A DNA stretch of 64,000 nucleotides from Ignavibacteriota bacterium (GTDB lineage Bacteria; Bacteroidota; Ignavibacteria; UBA10030; UBA6906). The stretch spans positions 50,398-114,397 of the forward strand of contig PMNE01000065.1 in assembly GCA_003162635.1 (NCBI GenBank). The letters are read 5' to 3'. The position numbers were made by a program, and so were the translations under genes. This document shows positions 29,620 through 36,423 of this stretch, piece after piece (within the stretch, counting starts at the first letter, position 1; the number at the start of each line of letters is the position of its first letter). Under the pieces are notes generated by a model, which saw only the letters and a program-made list of their open reading frames with translations, made no database searches and was not told the DNA's origin.

Positions 29620-30660
29620 TTACTTCCCTCCGTTCTCCTGTGTTCCGGTTTTCTTTTCCTCCGTTCCCGCCGTCCCTTCTCTTCTGCTTCCGTTGTTGTA
29701 CCTGTCGTATGCGTCGATGATGTCCTTCACCAGGCGGTGGCGGACAACGTCATTCCTGTCGAAGTACACGAACGCGATCCCTTCGATCCCCTTCAACACC
29801 TCCTGGATCTGGACGAGCCCCGAGCTCATTTTGTTCGGCAGATCGATCTGGGTGACATCGCCCGTGATGATCGCGCGGGAGTTGGGTCCAAGGCGTGTCA
29901 GGAACATTTTCATCTGCATGGCAGAAGCGTTCTGCGCTTCATCGAGGATAACGAACGCGTTATGCAACGTACGCCCCCGCATATAGGCCAGGGGGGCGAT
30001 CTCGATAATGCGTTTCTCGAGGTAAGCGCGAAGCTTCTCCCCCGGCAGCATGTCGTCGAGCGCGTCGTACAGCGGTCGAAGATAGGGATCCACCTTCTCT
30101 TTCAAATCGCCGGGCAGGAAGCCAAGACTCTCGCCTGCCTCCACCGCCGGACGGGTAAGGACGATCTTGGTGATCTCATTGTTCTTGAGCGCGGCAACTG
30201 CAATTGCCACCGCCATGTACGTCTTGCCTGTCCCCGCGGGTCCGACGGCAAACACGATATCGTTCTTCCGAACCTCCCTCAGGTACGCCCGTTGGCCGGA
30301 AGTTTTCGCACGAATGACCTGGTTCTTTGTGTACAGGATCAGGGAGTCAAGCTCGTCCTTGGGCAGAGTCGATGTGACGCCGCGCGGGACAGCCGGTTCG
30401 CCGTTGGCCGTCACCAGATCGATGACGGTTTCCACGTCGTTGGTCGTCAGGTTGCCGTTCCTCGTCAGGAGAAACATCATCTCCCTGAAGATGCGTTCGA
30501 GTTGATCCACTTCACCCGCGTCCCCCCGGAGGGTGATGAGGTCGCCCCGTACGACGACGGTGGAATCGAAACGCCGTTCCACAATATGAAGGTTCTCGTC
30601 GTTCAGGCCGAGGAATGCGACTGCATCCACCCCCTCCATTCTGATTTTCTTTTCGTTCAC
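29620..30660 (-). CDS. phoH: PhoH-like ATPase
   Basis: 346 aa; Walker A GPAGTGKTY, DEAQN; GTG start with GAAGGAGAG SD. Confidence 0.9.
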   Translation of the reverse strand: MNEKKIRMEGVDAVAFLGLNDENLHIVERRFDSTVVVRGDLITLRGDAGEVDQLERIFREMMFLLTRNGNLTTNDVETVIDLVTANGEPAVPRGVTSTLPKDELDSLILYTKNQVIRAKTSGQRAYLREVRKNDIVFAVGPAGTGKTYMAVAIAVAALKNNEITKIVLTRPAVEAGESLGFLPGDLKEKVDPYLRPLYDALDDMLPGEKLRAYLEKRIIEIAPLAYMRGRTLHNAFVILDEAQNASAMQMKMFLTRLGPNSRAIITGDVTQIDLPNKMSSGLVQIQEVLKGIEGIAFVYFDRNDVVRHRLVKDIIDAYDRYNNGSRREGTAGTEEKKTGTQENGGK

Positions 30661-30787
30661 GCCTGCTCTCCTTCATGCTGAAAACACACAACCCCCTCCC
30701 CTGTGCGAGACAGGAAAGGGGGTTGGACAACCGGCCGATGCCCGCAAGAGCGGGAGACGTCCTTCATCGGACAAACTGCTCCGTCAT

Positions 30788-31516
30788 CTACTTCGCCGCC
30801 TTCTTCGCATAATACTTCTTTGCGGCCTTCGCCTCATCCGTCGTCAGCTCTTTTCCCTTCGGGATCTGGAGTTTCTGTCCCTTCTTGATCACATCGGGAT
30901 CCTTGATCTGATCACGATTTCCCTGCCAGATTTTCGGCCAGAGCCAGGCATTGTCATAGATGTCTTTCTTCTTGGCAATATTCCAGAGGCAATCGCGGTT
31001 CTTGGCCCAGGTACCGACCGTGTAGATGTTCACCTGGTTCTTGAGGGTTGCTTGCAGACCTTTCACTTTTTCGTTCAGTGCGGTCAGGCGATCCCAGAAT
31101 TCCGGAATGAGGGAGAGCTTATTCTCCCACAATCCCTTCACATTCGCGGCAAGCTCGTCCACTTCGCTGCTGCGGGCGACGAGATCTGCATCCGAGAGAC
31201 GGGCAAGTTCGTTCGCCTTGTTCTCCGCGGCATCGATATCCGCACGGTAGGCGGCTGCCTTTGTCGCATCAGAGCCGACGAGGGCGTAGAGCGCGTCCAT
31301 GCACTTCTGGTAGTCGGCATCGAGCTGGGATGATTGCGACTGCAACTTCGCGATATTATCCGACAGGGCCTTCACTTTGGCCGTGAGCTCTGTCCTCGTC
31401 TGTGTATATTTGGTGATTTCCTGCTGCCATTGATCTTTCGTCATCTCCTGCGCAACAGCGCCGGCGGCGAAAACGAGCAGGGCAGCGATCACAAAGAATG
31501 TATGTTTCACGTTCAT
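30788..31516 (-). CDS. secreted coiled-coil protein with C-terminal LysM-like peptidoglycan-binding domain
   Basis: ORF from 31549; start MNVKHTFFVIAALLVFAAGAVAQE (signal peptide). ~150 aa heptad-like Ala/Leu/Lys-rich region, C-terminal YTVGTWAKNRD...IKKGQKLQIP LysM-like segment, Lys-rich tail. Confidence 0.6.
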   Translation of the reverse strand: MNVKHTFFVIAALLVFAAGAVAQEMTKDQWQQEITKYTQTRTELTAKVKALSDNIAKLQSQSSQLDADYQKCMDALYALVGSDATKAAAYRADIDAAENKANELARLSDADLVARSSEVDELAANVKGLWENKLSLIPEFWDRLTALNEKVKGLQATLKNQVNIYTVGTWAKNRDCLWNIAKKKDIYDNAWLWPKIWQGNRDQIKDPDVIKKGQKLQIPKGKELTTDEAKAAKKYYAKKAAK

Positions 31517-31549
31517 TGTCAAAGACTCCTTTTTTCGTTGTTCGCGCAT

Positions 31550-31819
31550 TTACTTGGCCAGCCGCTGCTTTACGATCGCCTGATCGTCGTTGCACTTCTT
31601 GATCTTCGCGTTCTTTTCTGCGACCTCACGATCAAGTGCGCCCTTCTGTTGCTCCTTGTCCGAGAGATCCTTCTGCATCGACGCAACTTCCTCTTTCAAG
31701 TCGTTCAGTTGCTTCAGTTGGGCCTCATCGGGACTCGATGAGCATCCAACGAGAACGAGCGAACCTGAAAAGAGGAGAGCCAGCGAAAATGCGGTGACTG
31801 TCCTGTTGAATTTTGGCAT
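31550..31819 (-). CDS. small coiled-coil lipoprotein (Lpp/Braun-like architecture)
   Basis: 89 aa; lipobox LVGC, ~65-aa charged heptad-like mature region ending in Lys; strong SD AGGAGG 7 nt upstream. Confidence 0.6.
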   Translation of the reverse strand: MPKFNRTVTAFSLALLFSGSLVLVGCSSSPDEAQLKQLNDLKEEVASMQKDLSDKEQQKGALDREVAEKNAKIKKCNDDQAIVKQRLAK

Positions 31820-31892
31820 TGGAACCCCTCCTGCGATTATATAGGAATGAGGAAACGAGAGAATCCCGTGTCTGTCTCAAAACCTAATCTTG

Positions 31893-31921
31893 ATAATACA
31901 AAAAAGTGTCACCTTTGTCAA
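31893..31921 (-). promoter_or_regulatory. consensus sigma70 promoter (TTGACA-N17-TATTAT) for lipoprotein/LysM operon
   Basis: Minus-strand reading: TTGACA (31921..31916), 17-nt spacer, TATTAT (31898..31893); ~65-nt leader to lipoprotein ATG. Confidence 0.55.
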
Positions 31922-31947
31922 TGACGAAATCCATGATTCGCAAACTT

Positions 31948-32667
31948 TTACACATATCCTCTCGCGGCGAGACTTGTGAAGCTGTTTCCGGCTACGATAA
32001 GATGATCATGGAGGGGGATGCCGACGATTTTGCCGGCTTCGCAGAGCTGATGTGTAATCTCGATATCCTCGCGGCTGGGTTCGGGATTTCCGCTCGGATG
32101 GTTATGCGCCACGATGACGGCGGCTGCCAGGCGGTCGATGGCAAACTTAAAAACCTCCCGCGGGTGGACGATGCTCGCGTTCAGCGTCCCGCGGGAAAGC
32201 TCGCTTTCGCCCACGACGCTGTTGTTTGTGTCGAGAACGAGGACAACAAACGTCTCGTGCCGGAGATCCCGCATACGGGGAATAAGGAACCGGGCGGCAT
32301 CCTCCGGGGAGCAGAGGGAATGCCTGTCACCGCATTCCTGCGCTTGCAAACGCCTTCCGATCTCCACGGCGGCCAGAATTTCGACCGCTTTGGCAAGTCC
32401 CACCCCCTGCACCCGTATCAGCTCTTCGGCGTTCTTCCGCGCCATTTCCCGCAATCCGCCCCCGTCGAGCACGCCGCGGGCAACATCCAGTGCGGAAGAG
32501 GACCCCGAGCCCGAACGGAGCAGGATCGCAAGAAGTTCGGCATCGGTCAGGGAGCCCGGTCCGCAACGCAGGAGGCGCTCACGGGGGCGTTCCTCTTCCG
32601 GCCATGTTGTGATGGCACCTCGTGCAGCGAGCGGTTCCTTGACGCATTCACGGCGACTGTTTTTCAC
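31948..32667 (-). CDS. radC: RadC-like JAB-domain protein (UPF0758)
   Basis: 239 aa; EERPRERLL helix-hairpin-helix N-terminus; JAMM motif HNHPSG. Confidence 0.88.
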   Translation of the reverse strand: MKNSRRECVKEPLAARGAITTWPEEERPRERLLRCGPGSLTDAELLAILLRSGSGSSSALDVARGVLDGGGLREMARKNAEELIRVQGVGLAKAVEILAAVEIGRRLQAQECGDRHSLCSPEDAARFLIPRMRDLRHETFVVLVLDTNNSVVGESELSRGTLNASIVHPREVFKFAIDRLAAAVIVAHNHPSGNPEPSREDIEITHQLCEAGKIVGIPLHDHLIVAGNSFTSLAARGYV

Positions 32668-34720
32668 TATTTCCCCTCACGCCGGAAGGGAGACCTGCAT
32701 CCAGCTCCTCCACTTTCCGGAGATCATCATCCTCGTACTTCATAATCGTCAGCCAGCTGTTCACCCTGTCCCCCGCAAGCGTGATCTTCGTGTGCAGGGT
32801 ATGGAAATCCTTCACGTCAGCCAGTGCCCGCTGCAGTGCTTCCCGCGTCGTGGCCCCATTCTTCACGAGGCTGAGCACGAGGAGAGCAGTGTCATAGCCA
32901 TAGAGTGTGTTGCGCGAGGGTTTCTTCTTGAAGCGGGCGACGAAACCGTTGACGAACGCCGCGTACGCCCCCCCCGTCGTATCGATGTCGCTATCCGATT
33001 CGAATGCAACGCCGCTGCAATACCTCCGGTTCGCATTCAATTCTGCCAGGTTGTTCCACTCGCCGGAGCCGAGGATCTGCGTCTGCAGATTGAAGTAGAC
33101 GATCTGGGAACAGACCACGCCGATCTCCTCTGCCGAGTTGATCGGGACGTACAGCGCTTCGATCGCATCCACGGGGTATTCAAGACTATCCGCACGCGAC
33201 TCGTCGAACATCGCGGGAATGCCGAGCGAATCAAGCGTGAACCGCGCCCGGGGACCCAGAAGCGAGATTGCGCTGATCGCGGCCCCCGTGCTCATGAGCG
33301 AATCAAGACGTGTGATGGAGACGCCGAGATGCACAAGTTTGAGGAGAGTCTGTTGACCCGTGCGGCCCCCGAACGAAATCCGCGCGTCCTCTCCGGCCTC
33401 CGCCCCCGCACGCCTGATTTTCGCAAGCGGCTGCTTCAGGTCGGACGAACCGCGCTGGTACCATTCCGTCGCCACGACGCGGGCGCCGAGGCGGGTGGCT
33501 TCGCGCACGAACGCCTCCGCGAGAAACTTCCCATAGGAATCGATGGGAGCAAGAACGGCGAGCGTCCGGAAACCGCGCGAAACGACGGCATACCGTGCCA
33601 TGGCGCGGCCGCGTGCATCATAGTCCGGGTTGGCAAGAAACACGTATTTCCCGGACGATGCCAGCCCAACGGCATTTGCCGTGGGGGTGACAAGGGGGAC
33701 TTTGCGCGCGTTGGCAACAGCCGCTGCAGACGTCACCGTGGTGGAAAAGACAGGTCCGATCACCCCGATGACCTCTTTGTCGTCGCAGAGTTCCTCCGCC
33801 CCTTTTGTCGCCAGCCGGGGTTCACGCTCCGTGTCGCGCGTTTCCAGCGTCACATTGACACGAATTCCCGGCGTCTGTTCATACTGCTCCACAGCGAACA
33901 GAACGCCGTCATACACATCGTTCCCGACTTCTTTTGCCGCCGAAGGCTCGCTCGTCCGCATCAGAGGAAGGAGCGCCCCCAGCTTCACGCTGCTTTGCGA
34001 GGCCACCCGGCCGCGAAGGGCGCTGATGCGATCCGCATACGCGGCCGACCGATAGCGGCCCGTCAGTGAATCAAGGGCAATGCCGGCGCCGACCGAGTTC
34101 TCATCCGCGGCTTCCTTCTCGGCCACCTTCAGCCAGAGATAGGCGCGGACTTCAGGATGCGCAGCCCGCGAGAGCATCTGGCGGAGGGTCGACACCCGCA
34201 GGTGCGCGTCAATGGTGGAATCGAGCGAGGCAACAACAGCGGACCCGAGTTTCGACGGCTCCTCATGCCGAAGATCACCGAGCGCCGTCAGGAGCATGTC
34301 TGTCGCCTCCTCGTATCGCTCGATTTTTTCATACACGAGGCCGATGACGTGTTCCGCATCCGGAACATACTCGCTGGCGGGAAAACGAGTAAGGAATGCC
34401 TTCATCGTTCTTGCAGCGTCGAGATTTTCGCCGGCATGATAGAGCGCCTTCCCCTTCATGACGAACGCTGCAGTGATCCGCTGTGAGGAGGGGTATTCCC
34501 GCACCAACTGGTCGAATCGCGCTGCCGCATCGCGATACGTCCCTGCATCGTAGCTCGTCAATGCCGCGCGGAACTGTCGCTCGGCGGCTTCGGAATACTC
34601 CACGCGCGTCTGGGCGCCGAGCACGCCATGCGAAGCGCCCACGGCGAGAAGAAGGCAGAGAGCAAGGTATCCGGGTCCCATCGAGGTGCACCCTCCGACT
34701 GTGAGAAACCTGCGCGGCAT
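32648..34720 (-). CDS. TPR-repeat / type-1 periplasmic binding protein fusion (LpoA-like architecture; substrate unknown)
   Basis: ORF from 34831; start MPRRFLTV (34720) with signal peptide. N-terminal TPR-like helices, C-terminal Leu/Ile/Val-binding-protein-like fold. Confidence 0.65.
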   Translation of the reverse strand: MPRRFLTVGGCTSMGPGYLALCLLLAVGASHGVLGAQTRVEYSEAAERQFRAALTSYDAGTYRDAAARFDQLVREYPSSQRITAAFVMKGKALYHAGENLDAARTMKAFLTRFPASEYVPDAEHVIGLVYEKIERYEEATDMLLTALGDLRHEEPSKLGSAVVASLDSTIDAHLRVSTLRQMLSRAAHPEVRAYLWLKVAEKEAADENSVGAGIALDSLTGRYRSAAYADRISALRGRVASQSSVKLGALLPLMRTSEPSAAKEVGNDVYDGVLFAVEQYEQTPGIRVNVTLETRDTEREPRLATKGAEELCDDKEVIGVIGPVFSTTVTSAAAVANARKVPLVTPTANAVGLASSGKYVFLANPDYDARGRAMARYAVVSRGFRTLAVLAPIDSYGKFLAEAFVREATRLGARVVATEWYQRGSSDLKQPLAKIRRAGAEAGEDARISFGGRTGQQTLLKLVHLGVSITRLDSLMSTGAAISAISLLGPRARFTLDSLGIPAMFDESRADSLEYPVDAIEALYVPINSAEEIGVVCSQIVYFNLQTQILGSGEWNNLAELNANRRYCSGVAFESDSDIDTTGGAYAAFVNGFVARFKKKPSRNTLYGYDTALLVLSLVKNGATTREALQRALADVKDFHTLHTKITLAGDRVNSWLTIMKYEDDDLRKVEELDAGLPSGVRGNSEKQSP

Positions 34721-34731
34721 GATTCTTCCCC

Positions 34732-36423
34732 CTATTGATCTTTTCGCAGCGCCAGCAGTCCGAGCGCCGACGCACCGAAGAACACTATGCCGGAAAGCAC
34801 GCCGACTGCCGCGAGAGGCAGGATCACCCATGCCTGCGACGCCGACCCCCTGAAAATCAACAGTTCAAAGTACCGGTTCACCGGGAGAAAGAGAATCGCG
34901 ACGACGCAGCCAAGGTACACCATGCTGCCGAGGAAGCTCAGAGACGCCCCCTGCGATGAGGCGATGCGAATCGGATTCTTCTCCCGGTACGAGGCGAAAT
35001 AGGTCCCGGCGCCAAGATTCGCCCCCGTCAGAGTCAGTGCAACGAAGGCGGTGCAAACGAGGTTGAGAACGAAAATGGAGGGATATTCCTTCACGGCCAT
35101 TGTGGATGCGGCAGCAAGAACTTCGGACACCACAAGTATCGGGAGAAACGCCCCCACGAATTTTTGCCAGTACAGCCCCGGCAGGGAGACAGGGGCCGAT
35201 CGCACGCACCAGAAGGCATCTCCCTCCAGGCTCATGCTGGGAAACACAAAACGAAGTGCCACCGACGCGACAAAGAAACTGTTGAAGAGGAAGACGGCAA
35301 GATAGGATACTGTCCGCAGAAACGGCTGTGTCAGCTTCAATTCGAGAGACCTGATCGACGCCAGAAAGACGACAAGGAGGAGTGCCATGAGCAAGAGGTG
35401 GAGCCATTGGCTCGGCTCCCGGAGGAAGCAGAGGATATCCCTCCGGAGCAGCACATCCCTCTGGGGAGGCAGCGGCCCCCCGCGGTCCAGTCGGAACGCG
35501 CCGGCGCGCCGGAAGAGCGATATCCCGCCCCCTCCTTCCCGGCCATCCGACGCTGTCAGCCAGCTCTTATAGTAATACTGCCGCGCAAGGATCCCGGCAA
35601 CAACGAGCAGACCCGCCAGCGTCAGAAACAGCGCAAGAAGATTGCCGACGGCCCTCGCGTGGTCCCCCATCATGGTCCAGTAGAGATATTCAGCGACCCA
35701 ATGATTTGGCAGGTAGCGCACGAACGGAGGGTCAAGGTAGCCGAAATACGCATTGACATCCGGATAATGACGCATCACTTCGGCGACGAGGGAGACCGGA
35801 TTGGTCAGGTAGAAATACACATAGATCACCCCCATGTACAGCAACGCCACGCCGGAGAGAAGCCATCGGATGCCGACGAACGCCGCCACCCTGATCAGGA
35901 TCATGAGCAGGATCACCGCCGACAGCGCGGCAATCAGCATGAAAGGAACGAGGACGGCGAACAGAGTGAACAGGTAGAAGTACCATGGCATCGCAAACGA
36001 AGAGCCGTATCCGAGCAGGAGAGCAAGCCCGAGCAGGAGAAGCGTGCTGGAGCTGTAGAAGAAATTGTCGATGAACTTGACGACAAAGATCTTCGCATGC
36101 GAGAAAGGAAGAGCCACCAGAAACTGGACCTCCTCCGAACGGTAGAGCGTCGCGTAACAGACGATCATGTTCCCAAGGTTTACCGTGATAAAGAACACGT
36201 AGAGGAGCATGGAGAGAAAACGGTGGAAGAGGAACATGCCGATGTGTTCCTGCTGGAGGAGGTACACTGTCGCCGACCGGGAGAGAAGGAAGACGCCGGC
36301 GGCGACACTGCACGAGATAAGCATCGAAGCAATGTTCTTCAGCAGGCTCGCCGGCCGAAAGTCCGTTGCCCCTTTCAGGAAAATGCTCGACTTGACGTTG
36401 AGGGCGCTCAGTATTTCGTGCAT
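34732..36423 (-). CDS. ABC transporter permease, large polytopic
   Basis: ORF from 36558; start MHEILSAL (36423) 7 nt after ATPase stop; ~12 TM helices. Confidence 0.65.
   Translation of the reverse strand: MHEILSALNVKSSIFLKGATDFRPASLLKNIASMLISCSVAAGVFLLSRSATVYLLQQEHIGMFLFHRFLSMLLYVFFITVNLGNMIVCYATLYRSEEVQFLVALPFSHAKIFVVKFIDNFFYSSSTLLLLGLALLLGYGSSFAMPWYFYLFTLFAVLVPFMLIAALSAVILLMILIRVAAFVGIRWLLSGVALLYMGVIYVYFYLTNPVSLVAEVMRHYPDVNAYFGYLDPPFVRYLPNHWVAEYLYWTMMGDHARAVGNLLALFLTLAGLLVVAGILARQYYYKSWLTASDGREGGGGISLFRRAGAFRLDRGGPLPPQRDVLLRRDILCFLREPSQWLHLLLMALLLVVFLASIRSLELKLTQPFLRTVSYLAVFLFNSFFVASVALRFVFPSMSLEGDAFWCVRSAPVSLPGLYWQKFVGAFLPILVVSEVLAAASTMAVKEYPSIFVLNLVCTAFVALTLTGANLGAGTYFASYREKNPIRIASSQGASLSFLGSMVYLGCVVAILFLPVNRYFELLIFRGSASQAWVILPLAAVGVLSGIVFFGASALGLLALRKDQ

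What the first reader, a model, noticed from the sequence alone, without database searches (positions are those of the whole stretch)
30788..31922. Consensus-promoter operon: Lpp-like coiled-coil lipoprotein followed by a coiled-coil LysM protein (candidate two-part OM-peptidoglycan tether)
Upstream sits a near-perfect sigma70 promoter (TTGACA-N17-TATTAT, minus strand 31921..31893), with a perfect AGGAGG SD. It drives an 89-aa lipoprotein whose lipobox is LVGC. The mature ~65-aa part is a charged heptad-like helix ending in Lys, as in Braun's lipoprotein, whose C-terminal Lys is the peptidoglycan cross-link site. Thirty-three nt downstream is a signal-peptide protein with ~150 aa of similar coiled coil, a C-terminal LysM-like peptidoglycan-binding segment and a Lys-rich tail. 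Lpp proper is restricted to a subset of proteobacteria. A lipid-anchored coiled coil plus a peptidoglycan-binding coiled coil, co-transcribed from a strong promoter, would be a plausible and undescribed split OM-PG tether.
Basis: partly seen in the sequence, partly recalled or inferred. Interest (0 to 1): 0.55.

Follow-up and report, generated by a model that had tools for sequence, protein, structure and literature searches.

The report
Paired lipoprotein and LysM wall tether
A strongly promoted two-gene operon, conserved across Ignavibacteria, encodes a small helical lipoprotein and a cell-wall-binding (LysM) protein whose sequences have co-evolved as if they zip into one disulfide-locked rod linking a membrane to the cell wall, an arrangement that no paper found here describes.

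Summary
It comprises a TTGACA-N17-TATTAT promoter, an AGGAGG ribosome-binding site, an 89-aa lipoprotein (gene 1, lipobox LVGC, one long helix), a secreted 242-aa helical LysM protein (gene 2) 33 nt downstream, and a terminator hairpin.

The pair is conserved. All 80 related genome loci (43-76% identity, Ignavibacteria-type MAGs) have the small lipoprotein gene directly upstream. The promoter is conserved too.

The two products appear to bind each other:
- Each has one cysteine at a heptad d position, 50 residues from its mature N-terminus.
- Both cysteines are present in 69 of the 80 pairs scored. They were lost together in at least four independent lineages.
- Covariation between the proteins peaks on the parallel diagonal that aligns the two cysteines.
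- Polar core residues in one helix face hydrophobic ones in the other.

Best model: a parallel hetero-coiled coil stapled by a disulfide. The lipid anchor sits at one end and the LysM domain, which binds peptidoglycan non-covalently, probably at the other. The rod is about 8 nm long.

The Braun-lipoprotein analogy fails on its key point. The C-terminal Lys is not conserved (35 of 79 orthologues) and no Lpp model matches. I rate this a new variant of a known kind. Function and membrane location are inferred, not shown.

The parts
31893..31921 (-). Sigma-70-type promoter: TTGACA, 17-nt spacer, TATTAT
   Evidence: 11 of 12 consensus positions. The same motif lies 60-70 nt upstream of gene 1 in 66 of 75 related loci.
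31820..31892 (-). 5' untranslated leader of about 65 nt, with the ribosome-binding site AGGAGG at 31832..31827
   Evidence: Sequence read. The leader length is similar in relatives. No Rfam match.
31550..31819 (-). Gene 1: 89-aa lipoprotein. Signal peptide residues 1-25, lipobox LVGC (Cys26, nt 31744..31742), 64-aa mature single helix.
   Evidence: A lipoprotein gene occupies this position in all related loci that could be examined.
31592..31594 (-). Codon for gene 1 Cys76 (mature position 51), at a heptad d position; proposed disulfide partner
31517..31549 (-). 33-nt spacer between the genes, with the gene 2 ribosome-binding site AAGGAG (31531..31526) and no terminator
30788..31516 (-). Gene 2: 242-aa secreted protein made of a coiled coil, a helical bundle and a LysM domain
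31280..31438 (-). Gene 2 helix 1 (residues 27-79): canonical heptads; proposed partner of the gene 1 helix
31301..31303 (-). Codon for gene 2 Cys72, at a heptad d position; proposed disulfide partner
31040..31267 (-). Gene 2 helices 2-4 (residues 84-159): fold-back helical bundle resembling a spectrin or BAG three-helix bundle
30860..31033 (-). LysM domain of the Kbp/YgaU type (residues 162-219), with invariant Cys176
   Evidence: Cys176 is present in 80 of 80 sequences.
30794..30841 (-). Conserved basic and aromatic C-terminal helix (residues 226-241, pattern E..A...YY..K)
30689..30725 (-). Terminator-like hairpin (16-bp stem, T-rich tail) between gene 2 and phoH

Best explanation
The operon makes two envelope proteins that assemble into one elongated complex linking a membrane to peptidoglycan.

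Proposed steps:
1. Gene 1 is exported, lipidated at Cys26 and anchored in a membrane. The outer-membrane inner leaflet is most likely, because residue +2 is Ser, Thr, Ala or Gly and never Asp in 79 orthologues; this applies the E. coli sorting rule and is an inference.
2. Its 57-residue helix pairs in parallel and in register with the first helix of secreted gene 2. Both N-termini are then next to the membrane.
3. About 8 nm from the anchor, the two d-position cysteines (gene 1 mature Cys51, gene 2 Cys72) form an inter-chain disulfide that locks the heteromer.
4. Gene 2 then probably folds back into a helical bundle that places its LysM domain at the far end (topology inferred; no coordinates were available). 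The LysM domain binds the glycan strands of peptidoglycan non-covalently.

The very strong conserved promoter and ribosome-binding sites suggest an abundant structural protein. The complex would work like Lpp or Pal (anchoring, and perhaps setting spacing) but with a different covalent logic: lipid, helix, disulfide, LysM.

Shown here: gene structure, conservation of the pair, coupling of the cysteines, the covariation register, and the folds.

Inferred: the physical complex, the disulfide, which membrane, peptidoglycan binding, and the tether function.
For: Numbers in brackets are tool call numbers.

(1) Conservation of the pair. All 80 best genome loci (43-76% identity) carry a small lipoprotein gene 1-136 nt upstream of the LysM gene; in one locus a contig end cuts it and only its C-terminus is visible (21-25). 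The pair recurs in distant relatives: L086, 33% identical, and L094, of the subfamily with two LysM domains, whose partner lipoprotein is again 64 residues when mature.

(2) Coupling of the cysteines. Both cysteines are present in 69 pairs and both absent in 10; gene 1 alone keeps its cysteine in 1; gene 2 alone in none. On a neighbour-joining tree the joint losses fall in four separate lineages. Further look-ups added two more pairs lacking both cysteines (L085, L092) and one more keeping only the gene 1 cysteine (P0059).

(3) Position. Both cysteines occupy heptad d positions and lie 50 residues from the mature N-terminus. L086 again has Cys at mature position 51 (81).

(4) Covariation between the proteins (mutual information with average-product correction, 80 pairs, effective number 47). 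Cys51-Cys72 ranks 4th of 15,488 pairs. The best of 436 diagonals is the parallel offset +21, which aligns the two cysteines: z=4.1-4.6, and 3.7 without the cysteine pair. No antiparallel diagonal exceeds z=2. Other offsets in heptad phase score z about 1.0-1.4 (58-60).

(5) Complementary cores at that register. Gene 1 K30, K34, K44 and Q55 face gene 2 L51, I55, L65 and L76. Gene 2 R41 and S62 face gene 1 V20 and V41 (70).

(6) A profile-profile alignment of gene 1 with gene 2 helix 1 is ungapped at the same offset (probability 92.5%, E=5e-7), suggesting gene 1 is a duplicated copy of that helix (71).

(7) The LysM fold is confirmed.

(8) Some relatives carry their own lipobox: 13 of 150 family representatives do, and in the P0266 lineage both subunits are lipidated. 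This fits N-termini lying next to a membrane.

(9) The promoter is conserved.
Against:
- Two lineages (L010 and P0059) lost the gene 2 cysteine but kept the gene 1 cysteine, so the coupling is not absolute. A gene 1 to gene 1 disulfide or a higher-order complex is possible.
- The covariation rests on an effective number of only 47 sequences, with no correction for shared ancestry.
- Gene order around the pair is well conserved in this class in general: phoH follows in 78 of 80 loci. Adjacency alone is therefore weak evidence.
- Outer versus inner membrane is unknown for this phylum. The gene 2 signal peptide was judged cleavable only from its A-x-A motif and 15-residue hydrophobic core.
- In Borrelia BB0323, the nearest characterised analogue, deleting LysM did not affect outer-membrane organisation (PMC5462797). 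A LysM domain therefore does not prove a tether role.
- In one distant relative (L090) the small partner has no lipobox.
Confidence: 0.55

Rival explanations
1. Braun-type covalent tether: gene 1 is a functional Lpp whose C-terminal Lys is cross-linked to peptidoglycan by an L,D-transpeptidase, and gene 2 is merely an accessory.
For: Gene 1 is a small lipoprotein with a single 57-residue helix and a terminal Lys in the window and its close relatives (106 of 120 close homologues). It has a very strong promoter. JGI labels a few homologues 'Lpp'.
Against: The terminal residue is Lys in only 35 of 79 orthologues (otherwise M, Q, N, H or E). There is no Pfam LPP hit. The NCBIfam Lpp/OprI score is less than half the cut-off, and the matched stretch (residues 12-66) includes much of the signal peptide. 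A gene 1 profile finds no Lpp chain in the PDB. Lpp itself is confined to four gammaproteobacterial orders (bioRxiv 10.1101/2021.05.31.446380).
Confidence: 0.07
2. Scaffold for cell division or wall remodelling rather than a static tether. In the manner of EnvC, NlpD, DipM or Borrelia BB0323, the coiled coil plus LysM would recruit or regulate peptidoglycan hydrolases, or organise the envelope at the septum.
For: Coiled coil combined with LysM is typical of division-site factors. Automatic JGI names for homologues are EnvC, CwlO or EzrA. BB0323 (helical N-terminal domain, C-terminal LysM) is needed for cell fission and outer-membrane stability (PMC5462797). A conserved secreted protein with TPR and periplasmic-binding-protein-like domains lies two genes upstream.
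Against: There is no LytM, amidase or other enzymatic or regulatory domain. The JGI names reflect coiled-coil composition only. The consensus promoter suggests very high constitutive expression, which is more typical of a structural protein. Nothing here excludes this role, and it could coexist with tethering.
Confidence: 0.2
3. No heteromer. Each protein forms its own homo-oligomer with its own d-position disulfide, and the cysteines were lost together only because some lineages lost oxidative folding in the periplasm.
For: A d-position Cys can also bridge a parallel homodimer; Salmonella LppB forms disulfide-linked homodimers (bioRxiv 10.1101/2025.11.13.688167). Two lineages keep the gene 1 Cys without the gene 2 Cys.
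Against: The covariation diagonal between the proteins sits at exactly the register that aligns the cysteines, and it persists without the cysteine pair. Gene 1 has three Lys residues and a Gln at core positions, which would be unfavourable in a homodimer but are matched by hydrophobic residues in gene 2. The LysM Cys176 is retained in all 80 sequences, including lineages that lost the coil cysteines.
Confidence: 0.12
4. A domesticated phage two-component spanin or other lysis-cassette remnant: a small lipoprotein plus a periplasmic coiled-coil protein with inter-chain disulfides.
For: Weak PHROG hits of the gene 2 N-terminus to Rz-like spanins (E=0.004-0.008, with no stretch significant on its own). 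Spanins pair an outer-membrane lipoprotein with a coiled-coil protein and use intermolecular disulfides (PMC6139136, PMC5295617).
Against: The locus is a housekeeping chromosomal position fixed across a whole class (radC ... phoH, mazG, shikimate genes), with no phage genes. The gene order is the reverse of a spanin pair. The lipoprotein is a long helix, whereas o-spanins are, to my recollection, short and proline-rich. Gene 2 has a cleavable-looking signal peptide and a LysM domain.
Confidence: 0.02

Closest known systems
Braun's lipoprotein Lpp (E. coli; PDB 1EQ7) and Salmonella LppB
   Same: A small, abundant-looking lipoprotein whose mature part is one helix of about 56-57 residues (about 8 nm), expressed from a very strong promoter. 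LppB also uses a C-terminal-region cysteine for inter-chain disulfides (bioRxiv 10.1101/2025.11.13.688167).
   Different: There is no detectable sequence relationship. The C-terminal Lys is not conserved. Contact with peptidoglycan is delegated to a second polypeptide with a LysM domain. The partner is a different protein, not identical chains in a trimer. The organisms are Ignavibacteria, not Gammaproteobacteria.
Borrelia burgdorferi BB0323
   Same: An envelope protein with a helical N-terminal domain and a single C-terminal LysM domain that binds peptidoglycan. It is required for outer-membrane stability and cell fission, and it works as two associated polypeptides after proteolytic processing (PMC5462797).
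   Different: BB0323 is made as a single gene product and cleaved afterwards, whereas here two genes are involved. BB0323's partner BB0238 is unrelated to gene 1. No disulfide is described for it.
Pal, OmpA-family lipoproteins and LysM lipoproteins (NlpD, Leptospira LipL71/LruA)
   Same: A lipid anchor combined with a non-covalent peptidoglycan-binding module. The gene 2 C-terminus matches the LipL71 LysM region at E=2e-9. Some relatives of gene 2 are themselves lipoproteins.
   Different: Those are single chains. Pal and OmpA use an OmpA_C domain, and NlpD carries a LytM domain. None of them has the long hetero-coiled coil or the conserved cysteine pair.
E. coli Kbp/YgaU (PDB 7pvc)
   Different: Kbp is BON plus LysM, and its PDB entry names it a potassium-binding protein. 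Gene 2 has no BON domain, has a signal peptide, and has a 135-residue helical region.
Two-part tethers: phage Rz/Rz1 spanins, and the trimeric autotransporter AtaA with its peptidoglycan-binding partner TpgA
   Same: An envelope link built from two separate polypeptides. One is anchored in a membrane and the other spans or binds the wall. Spanins use coiled coils and inter-chain disulfides (PMC6139136, PMC5295617, PMC12523085).
   Different: There is no homology, and the subunit topology and biology differ. Spanins bridge the inner and outer membranes to fuse them during lysis. TpgA binds a beta-barrel protein, not a lipoprotein helix.

Membership tests
Lpp / Braun lipoprotein (Pfam PF04728; NCBIfam NF040598 Lpp/OprI alanine-zipper) | Sequence match to the family model above its curated cut-off | tested here: not met
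   PF04728 is absent from the Pfam hits at E<=1. NF040598 scores 20.5 bits against a 43-bit cut-off, and the matched stretch (residues 12-66) includes much of the signal peptide. A gene 1 profile finds no Lpp chain in the PDB at E<=10.
Lpp / Braun lipoprotein | Conserved C-terminal Lys used for cross-linking to peptidoglycan | tested here: not met
   Lys in 35 of 79 orthologues; M in 15, Q in 14, N in 11, H in 1, E in 1. Among relatives at least 66% identical it is K in 106, Q in 11 and H in 3.
Lpp / Braun lipoprotein | Lipobox followed by a single helix of about 56 residues with heptad repeats | tested here: met
   Lipobox LVGC. AlphaFold2 helix 32-88. Hydrophobic period of 3.5 residues.
Lpp / Braun lipoprotein | Homotrimeric assembly | not testable with these tools
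   No multimer prediction was available. The core Lys and Gln residues in gene 1 argue against a homo-oligomer.
LysM domain (Pfam PF01476) | Match to the family model | tested here: inconclusive
   The window protein scores 20.2 bits against the 20.9-bit gathering score. Several homologues carry a precomputed PF01476 hit. NCBIfam PRK11198 gives E=1.2e-8. A family profile matches the Kbp LysM at E=4e-12.
LysM domain (Pfam PF01476) | Beta-alpha-alpha-beta fold | tested here: met
LysM domain (Pfam PF01476) | Binds peptidoglycan or GlcNAc-containing glycans | not testable with these tools
   Requires a pull-down with purified sacculi.
Kbp/YgaU (BON + LysM) | BON domain N-terminal to the LysM domain | tested here: not met
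   No BON hit. The N-terminal region is a coiled coil and helical bundle.
LytM factors (EnvC, NlpD, DipM) | LytM (Peptidase_M23) domain | tested here: not met
   No M23 or LytM hit in either protein. EnvC appears only at E=8 in the PDB search, through its coiled coil.
Pal / OmpA-type tethers | OmpA_C peptidoglycan-binding domain | tested here: not met
   No OmpA_C hit.
Two-component spanin (Rz/Rz1) | Located in a phage lysis cassette; the i-spanin has an N-terminal membrane anchor and the o-spanin is a short lipoprotein | tested here: not met
   Only insignificant PHROG hits. The chromosomal housekeeping context is fixed across the class. The lipoprotein is a long helix and is encoded first.
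Borrelia BB0323-like envelope proteins | Helical N-terminal domain plus C-terminal LysM; sequence homology to BB0323 | not tested
   The architecture is similar.

The most novel reading that the evidence does not exclude
Ignavibacteria and related lineages that carry the same gene pair use a previously unrecognised class of envelope tether. It is a heterodimeric parallel coiled coil made of a lipidated 64-residue stub, which arose by duplication of the first helix of its partner, and a secreted LysM protein. In most Ignavibacteria the two are stapled by a d-d' disulfide. The complex would act as the abundant outer-membrane-to-peptidoglycan link and periplasmic spacer, evolved independently of Lpp and Pal.
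Probability: 0.35. Interest if true: 0.75.

Novelty: new variant of a known kind. Interest (0 to 1): 0.62.

Why it matters
Tethering of the outer membrane to the cell wall is essential for envelope stability. The survey read here counts only four main systems: Lpp, Pal, OmpA and OmpM. Lpp, the textbook case, is confined to four gammaproteobacterial orders.

A fifth solution that is conserved across a class would broaden the picture of how bacteria with two membranes hold their envelope together. Here the lipid anchor and the wall-binding module sit on separate chains, joined by a coiled coil and a disulfide.

The pair also makes a clean test case:
- Two small genes and one cysteine pair.
- Natural variants that lack both cysteines.
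- Relatives in which both subunits are lipidated.
- A helix length that can be altered to test the idea that it sets the width of the periplasm.

The evidence for a heteromer comes entirely from sequence co-evolution, so it can be checked directly with simple biochemistry.

Tried and rejected
No complex model exists.
- The afdb50 fold library was unavailable.
- Rfam found nothing in the leader or the operon.
- PHROGs gave only hits at the level of the LysM domain and insignificant spanin hits.
- Gene 1 sequence and profile searches of the PDB gave only designed or generic coiled coils.
- Weak Pfam hits for gene 1 (DUF5798, FAM76 and others) are all below their cut-offs and were treated as coiled-coil noise.
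- JGI names such as EnvC, CwlO, EzrA, 'nucleoid-associated protein YgaU' and 'Lpp' were treated as automatic labels, not evidence.
- An intramolecular Cys72-Cys176 disulfide in gene 2 was considered and judged unlikely: Cys176 stays invariant where Cys72 is lost. Model coordinates could not be inspected.
- The upstream ATG at 31549 was rejected as the gene 2 start. The ribosome-binding site sits before 31516, and homologues start at the equivalent Met.
Full report
**Observation.**
TTGACA-N17-TATTAT lies at 31921..31893, matching 11 of 12 consensus positions; the 2-kb region has 4 promoter-like sites against 0.7 expected from shuffles. AGGAGG sits 7 nt before the ATG at 31819. Gene 1 (31550..31819) encodes 89 aa with lipobox L-V-G-C26 and a 64-aa charged mature part ending in Lys. 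After a 33-nt spacer containing AAGGAG, gene 2 (30788..31516) encodes 242 aa with a signal peptide ending A-V-A|Q. A 16-bp hairpin with a T-rich tail follows at 30725..30689. The flanking genes are housekeeping: radC, phoH, mazG, an amidohydrolase, an ABC transporter, shikimate-pathway genes and comEC.

**What the two proteins are.**
AlphaFold2 predicts gene 1 as one uninterrupted helix, residues 32-88, after the lipobox. For gene 2 (mean pLDDT 84.5) it predicts:
- a 53-residue helix (27-79);
- three or four shorter helices (84-159);
- a beta-alpha-alpha-beta domain (162-219);
- a basic C-terminal helix (226-241).

Across 80 orthologues, hydrophobic positions repeat every 3.5 residues in gene 1 (8-63) and in gene 2 helix 1 (27-80). 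They repeat at 3.6 in the rest of gene 2.

**Distribution and conservation of the pair.**
Gene 2 has more than 1,500 relatives, and gene 1 has 236 detectable ones, all close. Both sets come from MAGs labelled Bacteroidota or Ignavibacteria. A scan of one genome per species found at least 530 relatives. The best 80 loci (76-43% identity) are nearly all labelled Ignavibacteria or Bacteroidota, including a MAG assigned to Ignavibacterium album.

In every one of these loci a small lipoprotein gene (83-117 aa) lies 1-136 nt upstream on the same strand. Two were missed by my lipobox pattern and found by eye. One is cut by a contig end but shows the C-terminal remnant.

The promoter is conserved as TTGAC[A/T]-N17-TAT..T about 60-70 nt upstream of gene 1. 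In 66 of 75 loci it matches at least 10 of 12 positions, against about 8 in shuffled sequence.

Gene order here is generally conserved: phoH follows in 78 of 80 loci and radC precedes in 64 of 80. Adjacency alone would therefore not prove a functional link.

**Evidence that the two products interact.**
- *Paired cysteines.* Gene 1 has a single mature-region cysteine (KKCNDD, mature position 51). Gene 2 has one in helix 1 (YQKCMDALYALVG, Cys72). Of the 80 pairs scored (the window plus 79 loci; L070 could not be scored), both cysteines are present in 69, both absent in 10, only gene 1 keeps it in 1, and only gene 2 keeps it in none.
- *Independent joint losses.* On a neighbour-joining tree the joint losses fall in four separate lineages: L022; L017-19; L069/71/72/74/78; and L065. 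The sister of L065, L010, has lost only the gene 2 cysteine. Extra look-ups gave two more pairs lacking both cysteines (L085, L092) and one more that keeps only the gene 1 cysteine (P0059, seen on six contigs).
- *Same position.* Both cysteines are at heptad d positions and both lie 50 residues from the mature N-terminus.
- *Covariation.* Mutual information with average-product correction between the two proteins ranks Cys51-Cys72 4th of 15,488 column pairs. Of 436 parallel and antiparallel diagonals, the best is the parallel offset +21, exactly the register that superposes the cysteines. Its z is 4.1-4.6, and 3.7 with the cysteine pair removed. No antiparallel diagonal exceeds z=2. Other offsets in heptad phase reach only z about 1.0-1.4.
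- *Complementary cores.* At that register, gene 1 K30, K34, K44 and Q55 face gene 2 L51, I55, L65 and L76. Gene 2 R41 and S62 face gene 1 V20 and V41. This disfavours homo-oligomers of gene 1.
- *Paralogy.* A profile-profile alignment built from 80 sequences on each side aligns gene 1 residues 11-55 with gene 2 residues 32-76 without gaps, at the same offset (probability 92.5%, E=5e-7). Gene 1 is probably a duplicated and truncated copy of gene 2's first helix.

**Relatives that extend the picture.**
- In L086 (33% identity) the partner is a lipoprotein with Cys again at mature position 51. The LysM protein there carries the coil cysteine and also its own lipobox. This fits both N-termini lying at one membrane.
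- In L094, a protein with two LysM domains is preceded by a lipoprotein of exactly 64 mature residues; neither has the cysteine.
- In L090 the small partner lacks a lipobox.
- Of 150 representatives of the wider family (clustered at 50% identity), 13 are lipoproteins themselves.

**Mechanism proposed (inference).**
Gene 1 is lipid-anchored. Its helix of about 8 nm pairs in parallel with helix 1 of gene 2. The disulfide near the end far from the membrane makes the path from lipid to LysM covalent. The fold-back bundle probably presents the LysM domain to peptidoglycan; this topology is inferred, because no model coordinates were available.

Residue +2 is never Asp in 79 orthologues. Under the E. 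coli sorting rule this favours the outer membrane, but the rule is unverified in this phylum. The conserved consensus promoter and strong ribosome-binding sites suggest high abundance.

**Comparison with known systems.**
- *Lpp.* Membership fails on the sequence models and on the conserved C-terminal Lys. Lpp is confined to four gammaproteobacterial orders.
- *Closest functional analogues.* These are Borrelia BB0323 (helical domain plus LysM, needed for outer-membrane stability, acts as two associated polypeptides), single-chain LysM or OmpA_C lipoproteins (NlpD, LipL71, Pal), and Salmonella LppB for the use of a cysteine in a tether helix.
- *Spanins.* They share the lipoprotein, coiled-coil and disulfide logic, but their context and topology exclude them.
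- *Literature.* Searches found no description of this pair.

**Caveats.**
- All evidence is computational, and no multimer model could be run.
- The covariation uses an effective number of 47 sequences without correction for shared ancestry.
- Two lineages break the cysteine coupling in one direction.
- Deleting the LysM domain of BB0323 had no effect on outer-membrane organisation.
- The membrane location and the cleavage of the gene 2 signal peptide are predictions.

**Verdict.**
The two-part-tether idea is supported and sharpened into a disulfide-locked hetero-coiled coil. The Braun-type Lys cross-link is not supported. I rate this a new variant of a known kind, of moderately high interest.

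Noticed in passing
window 32648..34831 (-): A 727-aa secreted protein with an N-terminal TPR/YfiO-like region and a Peripla_BP_6/ANF_receptor domain. It is conserved two genes upstream of the pair in 58 of 80 related loci. The architecture recalls the penicillin-binding-protein activator LpoA, which I cite from memory and did not test.
   Followed up: partly
window 29620..30660 (-); L086, L094: phoH follows the pair on the same strand in 78 of 80 Ignavibacteria loci. It also does so in two very distant relatives, including one of the subfamily with two LysM domains. The three-gene order (small coiled-coil protein, LysM protein, phoH) is therefore ancient. In the window a strong hairpin separates gene 2 from phoH. 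The reason for the linkage is unknown.
   Followed up: partly
L086 2147..3364: In this distant lineage both subunits are lipoproteins. The 112-aa partner has lipobox IAGC and Cys at mature position 51. The LysM protein P0266 has lipobox LISC and the coil cysteine (LKRCQDE).
   Followed up: partly
L090 119..400; L094 2182..2451: Proteins with two LysM domains also have a small coiled-coil partner upstream. In L094 it is a lipoprotein of exactly 64 mature residues without the cysteine. In L090 its signal peptide has no lipobox cysteine at all.
   Followed up: partly
L010; L082-L084 (P0059): Two independent recent lineages have changed gene 2 Cys72 to Ser while gene 1 keeps Cys51. The reverse state was never seen. 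This may mean the gene 2 cysteine is lost first, or that gene 1 has a second disulfide partner, for example another gene 1 chain in a higher-order complex.
   Followed up: partly
window 30989..30991 (-), gene 2 Cys176: The cysteine inside the LysM domain (RDCLWNI) is invariant in 80 of 80 sequences, even where the coil cysteines are lost. Kbp has Thr at this position and several two-LysM relatives have Tyr. Its role, whether a free thiol or core packing, is unexplained.
   Followed up: no
window 30794..30841 (-), gene 2 residues 226-241: A basic and aromatic C-terminal helix (pattern E..A...YY..K) is conserved after the LysM domain in the single-LysM subfamily. It is replaced by a second LysM domain in the other subfamily. 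It could be an extra contact with the wall or a membrane.
   Followed up: no
homologues P0391, P0413, P0418, P0480, P0484: Some homologues carry precomputed Pfam accessions PF28422 and PF28420, which are not in the local Pfam copy. A recent Pfam release may already define a family for the helical region. I could not check this.
   Followed up: no
window 31820..31892 (-): A leader of about 65 nt lies between the conserved promoter and gene 1, and its length is similar in relatives. It contains a second TATAAT-like box at about 31845..31840. There is no Rfam match.
   Followed up: partly
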